This document shows positions 1 to 15,000 of a stretch of DNA of 60,072 nucleotides, one piece after another. Made by a program: the position numbers. The DNA is from Escherichia coli (lineage in GTDB: Bacteria > Pseudomonadota > Gammaproteobacteria > Enterobacterales > Enterobacteriaceae). The first letter of the stretch is position 1; every line of letters begins with the position of its first letter. Where the stretch lies: the NCBI RefSeq assembly GCF_017348835.2, contig NZ_CP072314.1, one strand, 5' to 3'.

Positions 1-3000
1 GGAGAGAGTGATGAGTTTGAATGGTAGAGGATATGGGTGGGTGGTTGAAGGATATTGCGAGAGGCGCGTGGTGGAGGGGGAGGTTGGCGAGTGGGCGAGA
101 GGCTGAAGTGTCGCGGACTTTTTGGAGGTGAGGCGGGAAGGTGGTGGTGGGTCACTTCTCTATCCGTTCTCGTTTTTTCCGTTATTAATTTCGGTAGGTC
201 TTTGTCTCTGTCGTTTGTTCCTTGTGTATATCTTCATTTTTCTCTCCTGTGTATTTCTTGTGTCTTATCACCTTTGGCTCATTCTACTACCATTCATGTT
301 TTATATTAATGTTAGATTACTTATTGTATTGTACTTGCTTTTTGTTCTTAACTCCGTTTTCTTTTTCTGTTTTTCTTAATAGTTCTTATTTTCAGCTTTT
401 GTTCTCTCTTTTTATTTCTTTCCATTTAATGTATCATTAGTCGTGCGATTTTTTTGTAATTTTGCTGTTGGATCTAATGTCACTTCGTTTCCTTAAATTT
501 TCCATTTTTTTGTCGATCTTACTTACCGTTGTTCTTCTACTATACTGACCATATTTGCTCGTTGTTTTTTTCTCTCTTACTTCGTCAATTCTCACACTGA
601 TTAGATTTTTTTTTTCTTCTTATTCCTTTTTGCTGTGCTTAGGCGTATTACCCTTTTCCTTCCTTTGACATGTTGCCTATTATTTCTTTTTTCAGTCTTG
701 GTATATTTATGTTTTGTTTTTTCCTGTCATTAATTCTCTTACTCTTTGTCTCGTTAAATTTTCTATACCATTATTCGTTCTCTCCTTGCTTTTACCTAAT
801 TGGTTTTATTGGATTCGGTGTTGTTTTGACAGAGAGAGCGTTATTATTGCTTCAACTACTTTTGCAGTGCAGTTGTATATTATTTTGCCTTACAGCTACT
901 TTATTGATTATTTGTCTCTGATTGTGTGCTTGTGCGTCGATTGGGTGTTCTAGTGGTGAGTCCCTGGCTTGTTATTCAGTTTTGCTCTGTATTGGGTAGG
1001 TTGTTTTTTGTAGTCGAGTGGATTGGCGTTTTGAGCGTTACCAATATGGGTGTTGGTATGATAGGGGATAAGCGGTGGGAGGAATAGCTTTCAGGCTTCT
1101 GTTAGGTTACAGGTGGCCAGTGGTGGTAATAGAAGATGGGTGGTTTTCGCTTGTGCGTTCGTCCATTGGAAGTTGATATGGTTGTTCACTATTAGAGGTC
1201 GTACTGTGAGTTTCTCTTGTTGTATGAGCTGTATTATTGGCATTTTCCTCAACATCAATTGTCCGTCCTGCTTCTCCTTATATTCAAAGTTTTCTTCTGT
1301 GTTATTTATCTCTTTATTATCCACTTAATGCACATTTATGTCTGTGTAAATTTTGGGACTTTTCTTCTTTAAGTCATGAAATTCATTTCTCCATCTCGTA
1401 TATTCTTTTCATATTCCTTATTTGCTTCCTTGAACATCGCAGTGAGTTTTATCTAATCTTTTAACACATTTCTTTCTGCTTGATTTTTATTTTTCTTTTT
1501 CAATTCTTATTAGTTTTCTTTTCAGTGCGTTTAGATGAATTTACATCTCTTTACTGTTCGTCTCTCTTTCCATCACTGTTCACCCCTACCGATTCTTTTC
1601 CCCCTCACGGATTTTTATCCGCTGTAAACTATGCATTTTTTTCTTCGCTTAATCTCCCTGTTTCGATCTTTGCTTGTGCTCGTATACTGTCAACTTATGT
1701 GCTTCACTGCTTCTATCTTATTTCTCTGTTCATCATGCTTTAGTAGTAGTTATCCTCTCTTTTACTTTTGTTTTTTTTGTTGCTCTTCCTCATTTAGACT
1801 AATTCATTCTCTAAGTTTATTCTCTGTTGTTTATTCTTGTTTTATTACTTCTAGCGTTTTTTCAATAGTTTCTTTTCTATTACTATTCTTCAATCCTCTA
1901 GTAAATTCTGCGAATACGGTCCACGATCGCTGAAAGTCCTATTTAGGAGTTGTCAACCCTTCTTTCGTCCCCATTTTTTTAACTTTTGTCACTTCTGTGG
2001 GTCATTTTACTTTTTCATACATTAATATCCTCTTTTTTTTGTTCCTGTCTTAGAGTGAAATTTCTAACATCTTGCTACTTTCAGTTATGTCTAGTTTTCG
2101 TCTCTTTTATTCTTCTCAATCGCTTTCATTTTTCCTTTGCTCTTTTATACTTTTTACCTTTTTATTATATTTAGTTTTTGTTTTTCTTCTCTCGGGTTTT
2201 ATCTTGTAGGCTTACTTCAGTTTTCTTCTTTCGATTCTTTTTAATTCTTCTTTTCCTATTCATGGATTCAGAATTTGAAATCTCTCTTTTTTTTACTGAT
2301 TGCTTTTTAACACTTAACTTACTACGGATTTCCCCTTTATCTCTCCTAATATTTCAATTCTCGTAATAACATTTGCTGTTTTTTTACCTTGCTCTGACTT
2401 AAGTATTTTTCCCTTTGCATTTTGCTAGTTGTCTCAAATACTAACGGTGCTGATACTACTCTGTTTTACAATGTCAGCTCGTCTTTATTCCTTTCCATTT
2501 TATAGTGAACTGTTTCTCTCTTTTTTATTATATTTATTTTTCTTTTCTTTGTGCTTTTACAATCTCTACTCCTGTTTCATACATATATTTATTCCATTAT
2601 TTTGTTTGAGTTATTTTCCCACTTTTTTATTTTGTTTATTAATCATTTTAACACCTTACTATCCGGTTATTTTGCTCTCTACGGCGTGGGATCCAGTTGG
2701 TGTTTCGTTGTCGGATGTTTTTCATTAGTATTCACACTATCCATATGTTCATTTGCTTTACTGAGAGTTTAGATGCGCTCTATCACATTTTGTGTCCTTT
2801 AGGTTATAATGGAGTGCTTGAACTTTGCTTTTTGCTCCATACCTGTGATGTCTTTGACTCCATCTTTTCACCTTTTTGGTTTTTATCTCGAGCCCATTGC
2901 ATTCTTATGCTTCTCTCCAGTTTTTGCTTACTCCTCTTTATCTATTTTTCAATAGTTATCATGTGTACATGCTTAGCGTTTCCTATTATTCTTTCTATCT

Positions 3001-12000: not shown

Positions 12001-15000
12001 TTCAATCACTCCCTTTCGTTTATGTCCCACTTCTCTGTGGCTTAACTATAACTTCCGCGAGATGTGTTGCGTGGGACGATATAACCAATACCATACTGCC
12101 TGGAACGTATCAATAGCGGTCGTTTTCGCTTCAGTTTGGCGTTTCTCATGGATTTCTCATGCATCCTGCTCGGATTCACCACGAAATTTCATCAATTTTA
12201 TTTCTTCTTGTTCAACTTAACCCTACTCAAAATAAACTCATTCAGCCTTAATCTTTAAATCCTTTGTGATGGTATTTTCCCCACTAATTATTCAACCATT
12301 CTTCTAGTATGCAATCCAAACTACTGATTTTTAGCCGGTCTCTAAGCCCTCGCCTTCCGCTCCTTCTTTTAGTTATCTTCTCATTATTCTTACTCTCCCT
12401 CTCCTTTCCGTTGTAGCTTCACTCTCTTTAGAAATCATCACCGCCCCATATCTTATTTCTTTATCAAATGCACTATGCTCCACTATCGTCCCATTTAAGA
12501 ATCTTAGTACTCTGTTCACTGCTCTCTTTTTCTTTCCTGTAAATCTTTACTCCGAGTATACTATTTACATATCGACATAGCCGTTTGTTCCCTAGTTACA
12601 TTAGACCACTATATCTGCTCTGTCTTCAATCACGATCTTATTAAAACAACCCAACTCCGGGTAGAATAACATATCATCTGCGACACAGGCCATTAATAAT
12701 ATCAGACCTCGGCACCAGACCATCAGTGCAGCTCTGTCAAATAAATGTTGCTCGTCACTGTTAAGATGAATTTCTTTCATCGCCTCCATATTATCAGTGA
12801 CCTTATCAAAGACACCGAGCACTTCATACGCTCCCTCGATAACCTGCCCGACAATATCACCTTTATGTGGAACGCGGATTTCGCCAAAATTATTTCCGCA
12901 CACCAGGCCATTTGTGCAGACAAAACGAAAAATTCCGGGGATCATCTGATAACTGGATGAACCATCATGTGAATTAAGCAGGATAATTTCAGGAACTTCC
13001 TGCCCGTTAATATGCCCTTCCCTGCGAAGACGTAACATATGTTTACTGTATTCGCGACGTCCCAAATCACGAACCCGACTCTGACAGACAAAGAATGGCT
13101 GGAAACCTTCATCACGTAACTTATTGATGATATTGATTGTTGGAATATACGTATAACGTTCACTCCGGGACTCATGTTTATCACCGGAAAATACCGAAGG
13201 CACGAACTGCATTAATTCATCATCCGTTAAAGGACGTTCACGGCGGATGGAATTATACCGACCAAAACGGGAAGCTAATCGCATAACAGCTACTCCTTTA
13301 TGAAAGAATAAATTTAATAAAAAATTTTTCCGCTTAATATCATCCCTCCCGATCTCCATTAACAAGATTGCAACAATCAGGAGGGATATTCATCACATCC
13401 GGTCAGCAGATAGCCCGGATATCGAGGCCGGCACACTTAATCTGACGCAGGAACTGTTTGAAGTGATCGGCTTCCGCAATGTTGATATGGCGGAACTGCG
13501 TATCCACACCCCGGCTGAGCGCGTAGCTATAGCTGAAGGCCATCTTTTCCGGGTGGCTTTTGCGATATTTTTTCAGCTCAGTCAGGCTGCTGAATTCCAG
13601 GACGTCCCACTCTTCCCCGGTGTTTTTTTTCCTCCCGGCAACAAGAAGCGTGTACGACGCGGTGTTAACGTGGATATTTCGGGTACTCATCCTGCTTTCT
13701 CTTCTCTCTGGTTTTCAGCCCCCATCATCTTTTGAGTTTCGGGAGCCGCGGTTTTGACGTTTTGCGGGGACCTGCCTTTTGTTCCCTCCGGTATTCACCA
13801 TCACCTTTTTGAGAACCTTCGCCGCAAGGGGCATCACTGCCACGGCCTGACGCACCTGTCCTGGGCAGAACGCAAAATTTTTTACCGGTTTTTGGGTAAA
13901 AAATTTTGTGGGCTGTTCATTTACCCTGGACAGTCAGTGCGGCAGGTTGTGGCTGTATCAGCCCCCGGCGACAGGGACTCATACGGGTGTGTGGCACCCG
14001 GCAGGCAATGAGCAGGGGCCCGCCGCAACGACGGAGAGCGCGTGCGCGAAACGGCGTTGCCCCTTACATCCCGGCGGCCTTTTGCCGGGATGCCAGGAGC
14101 GCAGGCCACGGCGCGACAGAGGCGGCGCGACCGGAACGGTCGCTGCAAGCCAGGGTTTCGCGTCAGGGATGGAAGCCCGCCAGGGCGGAGACAGCTTCGC
14201 TGGCTCCGTTCACGACAGCCCGCCCCGTCAGGGGGACGCCCAGAAAAGCCATAAACAGGAGAGGAACGGAAAGAAGAAGAGGAAAAAGAAGAAGAACAAT
14301 AACAGGTACGGTAACCACAGAAAAATAACATCAGAAAAAAACATTCCGGACACATCACAAACAGGAAGGGTAACGGGCGACGCGTCAGCGTGGCCCGCTT
14401 CCCTTCCGGCAGGCGTCAGCCTGCCAGGGGTTTTCGCGCGAGCTGACAGGCGGCCTCCACCGCCTGCCCCTGTATCACCTGTTTCTGCTGCCCTGAAGGA
14501 TGTAGTGACCACCGAGGAAAACAGCCTGCTGATTCACCACAAAATCGCAGATTTCATCAACAATCTGTGCGGTGGTGAGCGGTTTCTGCCCCATTTCACG
14601 ACGCCGCGCATTAATCACGGCCCTGTAATTACGCAGAATTTCGCGGGTTTCTGTGCTGATATTCATGACATGTGCTCCCCGTCCAGCGCCTGTAACACAA
14701 CGTCCATTGCTTCGCGTTCCTCCCTGACGAACGCATCACCATCGCCCCCGTTCTCACTCCCGACGGCATACAGGCGCTTCATTTCACTGCCTGCCAGCGC
14801 CATCACTTTTTCCAGCATCACCGCCGGAACTGTCACCTGACGGCTGGCGCGCTTTTCCTCCATCAGTCCACGAACAACATCGTGAACAATGCTGACATCC
14901 GCACCATATTCAAAGGCATCGTCCAGCCGCTGCATGACGGTTTCCAGCTCATCGTCTGTCAGACTCCAGTCCTGGGCTATGTGACGCACATCCCCACGGG

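What the first reader, a model, noticed from the sequence alone, without database searches (positions are those of the whole stretch)
1..12717. 12.7-kb 5' flank with pathological strand composition and no genes
Kilobase-scale blocks are pyrimidine-rich and A/G-poor on the plus strand, interrupted by G/A-rich C-poor blocks (for example ~5750-6060, ~7260-7680, ~9460-9990). There are homopolymer runs, no RBS or operon structure, and only low-complexity peptides in all frames. This is unlike any enterobacterial sequence and more like a read or assembly artefact, converted DNA, or synthetic filler. It must not be annotated as genes.
Basis: seen in the sequence. Interest (0 to 1): 0.45.

Follow-up and report, generated by a model that had tools for sequence, protein, structure and literature searches.

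The report
Sequencing noise on plasmid contig ends
The first 12.7 kb of the window, and also the last 3.6 kb, are meaningless non-biological sequence stuck onto both ends of an ordinary E. coli plasmid contig, most likely long-read base-calling noise, and should be trimmed, not annotated.

Summary
Bases 1-12713 have T 0.42 and A 0.19, and 22 of 25 500-bp windows have an AT skew below the minimum of the rest of the window. They form irregular blocks in three composition states.

Within a block the sequence is almost memoryless: dinucleotide odds are 0.91-1.09 given local composition. There is no codon periodicity. The 10 of 11 ORFs of 90 aa or more scanned gave no Pfam hit. There are no Rfam or tRNA hits and no match in any collection searched.

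At 12714 the window switches abruptly to 99.4-100% identity with E. coli plasmid pPE164. That real part (12714-56462) runs 1.05 times round a 41,584-bp circle: 12714-14878 repeats at 54298-56462. Each junk border is therefore spanned intact by the other copy.

The best explanation is an untrimmed, un-circularised long-read contig whose ends carry base-caller noise. Converted DNA is rejected. Deliberate filler cannot be excluded. This is not a real feature.

The parts
1..12713 (.). 5' noise flank: T-rich, purine-poor sequence in irregular composition blocks, with no genes
   Evidence: Composition. 14 segments in 3 states. Dinucleotide odds 0.91-1.09 given 60-bp local composition. No lag-3 excess. 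No BLAST or exact match anywhere. 0 Pfam, Rfam or tRNA hits.
5721..6070 (.). G/A-rich, C-poor block inside the 5' flank (A .25, C .12, G .40, T .23). Similar blocks lie at 1-150, 7261-7610, 9391-9990 and 11021-11160.
   Evidence: Change-point segmentation and 200-bp composition.
12714..12717 (.). Uncertainty zone of the left border: three bases match the plasmid, then a mismatch at 12717 (plasmid T, window A). Identity is unbroken from 12718.
   Evidence: The single mismatch between the two overlap copies is probably this one; I did not check its position.
12714..56462 (+). Real sequence: an IncF-type E. coli plasmid closely related to pPE164 (NZ_CP114129.1), read 1.05 times round a 41,584-bp circle.
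   Evidence: Megablast blocks at 99.36-100% identity: 12714-25895 = 26517-39700; 24636-43185 = 18643-1; 43181-46424 = 41684-38441; 45165-56462 = 17384-28683.
12714..14878 (+). Left copy of the start/end overlap. It shows the plasmid sequence continuing normally across the point where the 3' junk begins in the other copy (56462/56463 corresponds to 14878/14879).
   Evidence: Self-BLAST: 2165 bp, 1 mismatch, 0 gaps.
54298..56462 (+). Right copy of the start/end overlap. It shows the plasmid sequence continuing normally across the point where the 5' junk ends in the other copy (12713/12714 corresponds to 54297/54298).
56463..60072 (.). 3' noise flank: G-starved (G 0.09 overall, 0.00 in 56601-56800), with an excess of alternating dinucleotide runs. 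It ends in a G-rich block and then a C-rich block.
   Evidence: Composition. Sharp border. Lag-2 identity z = +8.7, lag-1 z = -6.6, and 18 period-2 runs of 7 or more against 4.3 expected. No blastn match in E. coli genomes.
12601..13365 (-). Chimeric ORF: the N-terminal ~200 codons of the plasmid DUF932 gene run into the junk, which supplies a false C-terminus and stop. Gene callers would annotate it.
   Evidence: ORF list. The pPE164 DUF932 CDS is at 26266-27087 and the match starts inside it at 26517.

Best explanation
The window is a linear, un-circularised, untrimmed long-read assembly contig of a ~41.6-kb E. coli IncF-type plasmid. The assembler walked once round the circle and 2.2 kb further, which gives a start/end overlap. 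The outermost reads of the layout carried stretches that were not DNA signal, and the base-caller turned them into letters. No other read or short read aligns to those stretches, so polishing corrected the real part up to the last alignable base and left the noise untouched. That explains the sharp borders.

Shown: the plasmid closes on itself inside the window, the flanks lie outside that circle, and the flanks lack every property of evolved DNA.

Inferred: the noise came from a long-read base-caller. The platform is undetermined. The 5' flank behaves like independent draws from a base distribution that switches state every 0.15-3.4 kb. The 3' flank behaves like a G-less alternating call pattern.
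For: 1. Both borders are contradicted inside the window. 12714-14878 equals 54298-56462 (2165 bp, 1 mismatch), and the blocks tile one full circle of pPE164, so there is no room for 16 kb of extra DNA in the replicon.
2. The published plasmid of the closest strain is 41,684 bp and lacks this sequence.
3. Borders go from 100% identity to chance-level identity (about 25%) within a few bases.
4. Junk lies at both extremities of the window: it starts at base 1 and ends at base 60072.
5. No similarity was found. Megablast and blastn found nothing against 5,426 E. coli genomes, 72,556 plasmids and 50,697 phage records. A 31-mer is absent from the genome, viral and metagenome contig collections.
6. 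The statistics are those of noise. Dinucleotide odds are 0.91-1.09 (CG 0.96, TA 0.96), with chi-square 25.9 against 5-15 for shuffles and 463 for the real part, which is 3.4 times longer. The period-3 peak is 3.3 against 6.6-34.8 in real chunks. Lag-3 identity is z = 0.7 against 11.3 in the real part.
7. The IS copies (1.2-1.3 kb, several per plasmid) are resolved and the ends overlap by kilobases. That is the behaviour reported for long-read assemblers such as Canu and NextDenovo. Junk and random reads are a recognised class of long-read output (PMC6966772).
8. The mismatch 4 bases inside the left border (12717), which accounts for the single difference between the overlap copies if that difference lies there, fits imperfect polishing at a clipped alignment edge.
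Against: No reads, qualities or assembly graph are available, so zero read support is inferred, not shown. No ONT, PacBio or Illumina adapter is detectable at the borders or ends. The near-perfect independence of successive bases in the 5' flank is also what a simple random generator would give. I know of no published composition profile of base-caller noise to compare it with. The source record could not be located, so the sequencing platform and assembler are unknown. I cannot prove the window is a whole contig.
Confidence: 0.8

Rival explanations
1. Deliberate or accidental synthetic filler or data corruption: letters generated by software, such as padding, a simulator's random or junk reads, or file damage, appended to both ends of a genuine over-circularised plasmid contig.
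For: The 5' flank is nearly i.i.d. given local composition. No adapters are present. The sequence occurs nowhere else.
Against: The two flanks obey different statistics: the 5' is memoryless, while the 3' has lag-2 z = +8.7 and is G-free. Composition states switch at irregular intervals of 140-3440 bp. The lengths are not round numbers (12,713 and 3,610; total 60,072). There is an improbable C11 burst. A simple generator would be more uniform.
Confidence: 0.12
2. Real DNA: a ~16.3-kb foreign insert (3' flank plus 5' flank joined on a circular 60-kb molecule) flanked by a 2,165-bp direct duplication, or host or contaminant DNA joined to the plasmid in a chimeric molecule.
For: This is formally compatible with the topology if the contig is circular, because the flanks are bounded by the direct repeat 12714-14878 / 54298-56462.
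Against: - No gene, RNA, repeat or homologue was found (and all searches).
- Chargaff's second rule is grossly violated over 12 kb.
- CpG and TpA odds are about 1, unlike vertebrate or bacterial DNA.
- There is no codon periodicity.
- The two flank ends that would have to join are opposite in composition: C 0.51 at 60001-60072 against G 0.52 at 1-150.
- A 2.2-kb target duplication is not a known insertion signature (my own knowledge).
- The closest sequenced plasmid is 41.7 kb without it.
Confidence: 0.03
3. Chemically or enzymatically converted DNA (bisulfite-like or deaminase-like), or a real strand mis-called systematically, so that the flank is a disguised copy of real sequence.
For: The 3' flank lacks G almost completely, as a G-to-A converted strand would. 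The 5' flank has blocks that lack C.
Against: - Collapsing any pair of bases, or using the RY, KM or SW alphabets, gives longest common words with the plasmid no longer than block-shuffled controls. The 5' values are 15-32 against controls of 15-34. The one high value is RY 37 for the 3' flank, which had no shuffle control of its own.
- The collinear ungapped comparison gives 15-32% identity.
- Permissive gapped blastn in forward and plain-reversed orientation (blastn also scores the complementary strand) gives only chance E-values of 0.012 or higher.
- blastn 'distant' mode, which would tolerate ~23% conversion, finds nothing in E. coli genomes.
- Most of the 5' flank is depleted in both A and G, which needs transversions.
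Confidence: 0.02

Closest known systems
Start/end overlap and untrimmed ends of long-read assemblies of circular replicons (Canu, NextDenovo and similar; Wick & Holt, PMC6966772)
   Same: The contig exceeds 100% of the replicon, with a kb-scale duplicated start and end (2,165 bp here). IS repeats are resolved. A plasmid is reported as a linear contig.
   Different: The benchmark describes duplicated real sequence, not 12.7 and 3.6 kb of non-homologous noise outside the overlap. It reports that assemblers were largely unaffected by junk and random reads, so carrying such sequence into a final contig is unusual.
Junk (low-complexity) and random reads of long-read sequencers, as modelled by Badread and mentioned in PMC6966772
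   Same: The sequence has no relation to the sample, is compositionally odd or low in complexity, and is kilobases long.
   Different: Here the noise is attached to real sequence within one contig rather than forming a separate read. The 5' flank is not repetitive: TRF finds only 5 trivial arrays. It is biased-random instead. I have no reference profile of real base-caller noise to match it against.
Bisulfite- or deaminase-converted DNA
   Same: There is near-absence of one base over hundreds of bases (G in 56601-56800, and low C in the G-rich blocks).
   Different: No parent sequence is recoverable in any reduced alphabet. Most of the flank is depleted in two bases at once. Borders with unconverted sequence are abrupt.

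Membership tests
Long-read assembly artefact (noise at untrimmed contig ends) | Lies at the extremity of the contig, outside sequence that already forms the complete replicon | tested here: met
   Junk occupies 1-12713 and 56463-60072. 12714-56462 tiles one full pPE164 circle plus a 2,165-bp overlap. Whether the window is the whole contig is not known.
Long-read assembly artefact (noise at untrimmed contig ends) | No homologue in any independent genome | tested here: met
   No match in the E. coli, plasmid or phage collections. A 31-mer is absent from three contig collections. Limits: there was no search of nt or of eukaryote genomes, and bases 1-4649 were covered by megablast only.
Long-read assembly artefact (noise at untrimmed contig ends) | Lacks the statistical marks of evolved DNA (codon periodicity, dinucleotide biases, strand symmetry) | tested here: met
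Long-read assembly artefact (noise at untrimmed contig ends) | Supported by at most one read, with no short-read coverage and low base qualities | not testable with these tools
   No reads or qualities are available, and the source record was not found.
Converted DNA (bisulfite- or deaminase-type) | Aligns to its parent sequence once the converted base pair is collapsed | tested here: not met
   Reduced-alphabet longest common words equal the shuffle controls against the plasmid. Only the plasmid could be tested in reduced alphabets. Ordinary blastn against E. coli genomes was negative.
Converted DNA (bisulfite- or deaminase-type) | Loss of one base with matching gain of its transition partner | tested here: not met
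   The main state has A .17 and G .11 both low, with T .49. That needs purine-to-pyrimidine changes.
Mobile element or genomic island inserted in the plasmid | Carries genes (integrase, transposase, cargo) and has defined ends (inverted or short direct repeats) | tested here: not met
   0 Pfam hits on 10 of the 11 ORFs of 90 aa or more. No true repeats between or within the flanks. The only flanking repeat is the 2,165-bp assembly overlap.
Vertebrate host (pig) DNA chimera | CpG depletion and interspersed repeats | tested here: not met
   CG odds are 0.96 in the 5' flank and there is no repeat family. No pig genome was available for direct search.

The most novel reading that the evidence does not exclude
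The flanks are real DNA physically joined to the plasmid. Examples would be a product of template-independent or grossly error-prone synthesis carried on a plasmid variant, or a 16-kb gene-less insert bounded by a 2.2-kb duplication. Its near-random, strand-asymmetric composition would then reflect an unknown biochemical process.
Probability: 0.02. Interest if true: 0.6.

Novelty: not a real feature. Interest (0 to 1): 0.07.

Why it matters
This matters only for data hygiene. If the contig is annotated as it stands, it yields a dozen spurious F/L/S-rich 'hypothetical proteins' and a chimeric DUF932 protein with a false C-terminus. It also gives a plasmid size inflated from 41.6 to 60.1 kb, a duplicated 2.2-kb segment and a false 'linear' topology. 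Trimming to 12714-54297 gives a clean circular plasmid. Such flanks would also contaminate protein databases and k-mer indexes with sequence that exists in no organism.

Tried and rejected
1. Collinear corruption of the plasmid. Ungapped comparison of 9714-12713 with the pPE164 sequence that should precede the border gave 15-32% identity per 100 bp, which is chance level.
2. Hidden base conversion. All six pairwise base merges and the RY, KM and SW alphabets gave longest shared words with the plasmid equal to block-shuffled controls.
3. Reversed strand. Permissive blastn (word 7, +1/-1) of forward and plain-reversed flanks against the real part, with blastn also scoring the complementary strand, gave a best E-value of 0.012.
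4. Relationship between the two flanks, or internal repeats. Only composition-driven 60-70% matches between T-rich stretches were found. TRF found 5 trivial arrays.
5. Adapters. ONT ligation and rapid, PacBio SMRTbell, TruSeq and Nextera gave only 8-14-nt chance matches. An earlier fuzzy-regex version timed out.
6. Locating the source record. The flank is absent from the RefSeq complete E. coli genomes and from PLSDB. The EspT protein led only to CP114129.1 and to short contigs. The chimeric DUF932 protein and a junk ORF are not on record. 31-mer scans of the genome, viral and metagenome contigs were empty.
7. Genes and RNAs. Pfam, Rfam and ARAGORN were all empty.
8. Regular block size as a sign of a generator. 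Segment lengths are irregular, 140-3440 bp, so this neither proves nor excludes a generator.
9. Platform assignment (ONT or PacBio). It could not be decided from the sequence.
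Full report
**The observation**

The first 12.7 kb of the window is compositionally abnormal. Bases 1-12713 are A 0.186, C 0.222, G 0.176 and T 0.416. The following 43 kb are close to even: A 0.269, C 0.237, G 0.233, T 0.261.

In 1-kb windows the AT skew is -0.14 to -0.53 across the first 13 kb and between -0.27 and +0.17 afterwards. In 500-bp windows, 22 of 25 junk windows lie below the lowest AT skew of 87 windows from the rest. 18 of 25 have a purine fraction more than 3 sd from the real mean.

A penalised-likelihood segmentation gives 14 segments of irregular length, 140-3440 bp, in three states:
- a dominant pyrimidine state (T .49, C .23, A .17, G .11);
- a G/A-rich, C-poor state (G .40-.52, A .19-.25, T .20-.23, C .07-.21) at 1-150, 5721-6070, 7261-7610, 9391-9990 and 11021-11160;
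- intermediate stretches.

All 11 ORFs of 90 aa or more lie on the + strand, simply because a purine-poor strand has few stop codons. They are L/F/S-rich and only one has an SD core upstream. The 10 that were scanned gave no Pfam match. There are no Rfam families and no tRNAs.

**What lies next to it**

From 12714 the window is an E. coli IncF-type plasmid. Megablast against complete E. coli genomes gives pPE164 (NZ_CP114129.1; 41,684 bp; pig isolate, Nanjing) as the only record covering most of the 12000-20000 query.

Against the full record the window resolves into four blocks:
- 12714-25895 = plasmid 26517-39700;
- 24636-43185 = 18643-1, reversed;
- 43181-46424 = 41684-38441, reversed;
- 45165-56462 = 17384-28683.

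This is one complete trip round the circle, in an arrangement inverted between the two inverted ISEc31 copies, plus 2.2 kb more. A self-comparison confirms that 12714-14878 equals 54298-56462 (2165 bp, one mismatch, no gaps). The circle is 41,584 bp.

After 56462 the match stops as abruptly as it started. A second anomalous flank runs to the last base of the window, 60072. It has G 0.09 overall and 0.00 in 56601-56800.

**Why the flanks cannot be part of the replicon**

Each junk border is contradicted inside the window. The plasmid sequence that should precede 12714 is present, intact, before 54298. The sequence that should follow 56462 is present, intact, after 14878.

The left border falls inside the DUF932 gene (pPE164 26266-27087). 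It produces a chimeric ORF (12601-13365, - strand) with a false C-terminus.

Identity drops from 100% to chance within a few bases at both borders. The one mismatch at 12717, four bases inside the left border, probably accounts for the single difference between the two overlap copies. The paper describing strain PE164 reports a 41,684-bp plasmid (PMC12233904).

**What the flanks are made of**

Given the base composition of each 60-bp block, dinucleotide odds in the 5' flank are all between 0.91 and 1.09, including CG 0.96 and TA 0.96. The chi-square is 25.9, against 5-15 for shuffles and 463 for the real part, which is 3.4 times longer and shows the usual enterobacterial TA 0.79 and CA 1.19.

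Identity between bases 1, 2, 3 and 4 apart is within 2.5 sd of block-shuffled controls. The real part has a lag-3 excess of 11.3 sd from coding. The period-3 spectral peak is 3.3 in the 5' flank, against 6.6-34.8 in real chunks.

The 5' flank therefore behaves like independent draws from a base distribution that changes state at irregular intervals. One C11 run at 3610-3620 is far more than that model predicts.

The 3' flank is different. It shows a deficit of identical neighbours (z = -6.6) and an excess of identity at lag 2 (z = +8.7). It has 18 alternating runs of 7 bases or more, such as TGTGTGTGTG, AGAGAGAGAGA and GCGCGCGC, against 4.3 expected.

Neither flank has internal repeats, and the two are unrelated to each other.

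**Searches for a parent or relative**

All of the following found nothing:
- megablast of the whole 5' flank against E. coli genomes and PLSDB;
- blastn of 4650-8600 and of the 3' flank against E. coli genomes;
- blastn of 10000-12800 against plasmids, which matched only from 12714 on;
- blastn of 4650-12649 against phages;
- an exact 31-mer from a normal-looking stretch in the genome, viral and metagenome contig collections.

To test 'converted DNA' I collapsed every pair of bases and used the RY, KM and SW alphabets. The longest words shared with the plasmid equal those of block-shuffled controls. Forward and plain-reversed flanks, which blastn also scores on the complementary strand, align to the real part only at chance level. 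No sequencing adapter is present.

**Interpretation**

The most economical account is an untrimmed, un-circularised long-read assembly contig. Kilobase start/end overlaps on circular replicons are typical of assemblers such as Canu and NextDenovo. Junk and random reads are a recognised component of long-read data (PMC6966772). Resolution of several 1.2-1.3-kb IS copies also requires long reads.

The noise at the ends would be base-caller output for signal that was not an orderly DNA read. It survived because nothing aligns to it during polishing, which also explains the sharp borders.

What is shown is that the flanks lie outside a closed replicon and have none of the properties of evolved DNA. 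What is inferred is the base-caller origin. The platform cannot be told from the sequence, and I have no reference profile of real noise.

A software-generated filler remains possible. The two flanks' different statistics, the irregular state lengths, the non-round lengths and the C11 burst argue mildly against it.

A real insert is very unlikely. It would be a gene-less 16-kb sequence that violates strand symmetry, has CpG and TpA odds near 1, and is bounded by a 2.2-kb duplication.

**Comparison with known things and verdict**

This is a member of no biological family. It fits the class of assembly artefact on the three criteria that could be tested: position outside a complete replicon, no homologue, and no marks of evolved DNA. 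The fourth criterion, lack of read support, needs the raw data. It fails the defining tests for converted DNA, for a mobile element and for vertebrate DNA.

It is not a real feature. The window should be trimmed to 12714-54297 and closed as a circle.

**Side observations**

The window and RefSeq pPE164 differ mainly at window 41750-42250. There the RefSeq record has about 68 extra bases, in a region where it annotates frameshifted repA, GNAT and DUF1778 genes. Independent plasmids CP148302.1 and NZ_CP043259.1 are collinear with the window, so the RefSeq record is the noisier one there.

A patch of 12 substitutions at 52961-53093 suggests the window is not the identical molecule. So does an intact 1327-aa autotransporter and a 156-aa EspF-like ORF in the window, where RefSeq has 1313 aa and a pseudogene.

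Noticed in passing
It is almost G-free (0% G in 56601-56800). It has a strong excess of alternating dinucleotide runs (18 against 4.3 expected) and a deficit of identical neighbours. Its noise statistics differ from those of the 5' flank.
   Followed up: yes
window 12714-14878 and 54298-56462: A 2,165-bp direct duplication with 1 mismatch, which is the start/end overlap of a circular 41,584-bp plasmid. The real part of the window is 1.05 plasmid units.
   Followed up: yes
window 24636-25895 and 45165-46424 (inverted ISEc31 copies): Relative to RefSeq pPE164, the arc between the two inverted ISEc31 copies is in the opposite orientation. This is either an IS-mediated inversion isomer or an assembly choice.
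   Followed up: partly
window 41750-42250 (pPE164 ~1280-1780): RefSeq pPE164 has about 68 extra bases and 9 mismatches here relative to the window. Independent plasmids (CP148302.1, NZ_CP043259.1) are collinear with the window. The RefSeq record therefore seems to carry insertion errors, consistent with its frameshifted repA, GNAT and DUF1778 annotations.
   Followed up: partly
window 52961-53093: A cluster of 12 substitutions in 133 bp relative to pPE164. By coordinate conversion it lies between traM and the SLT transglycosylase gene, near where oriT is expected. It may be a recombination patch or a different allele, so the window is probably not the identical plasmid.
   Followed up: no
window 54206 (DUF932 gene, - strand, right copy): A C>T difference from pPE164 coincides with the end of the ORF (54206-54949). 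It may be a premature stop that shortens the DUF932 protein relative to the 273-aa RefSeq annotation. Whether it is real or an error is unknown.
   Followed up: no
window 28005-28589, 30086-34069, 34150-34620: Virulence cargo of the real plasmid: the T3SS effector EspT, a 1327-aa serine-protease autotransporter (Peptidase_S6) and a 156-aa EspF-repeat protein. The last two are intact here, as in many short-read assemblies, but are 1313 aa and a pseudogene in RefSeq pPE164.
   Followed up: partly
window 3610-3620: A run of 11 C in a stretch with about 30% C. My estimate is about 0.015 such runs expected in the flank under independent draws. It is the one clear departure of the 5' flank from memoryless behaviour.
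   Followed up: no
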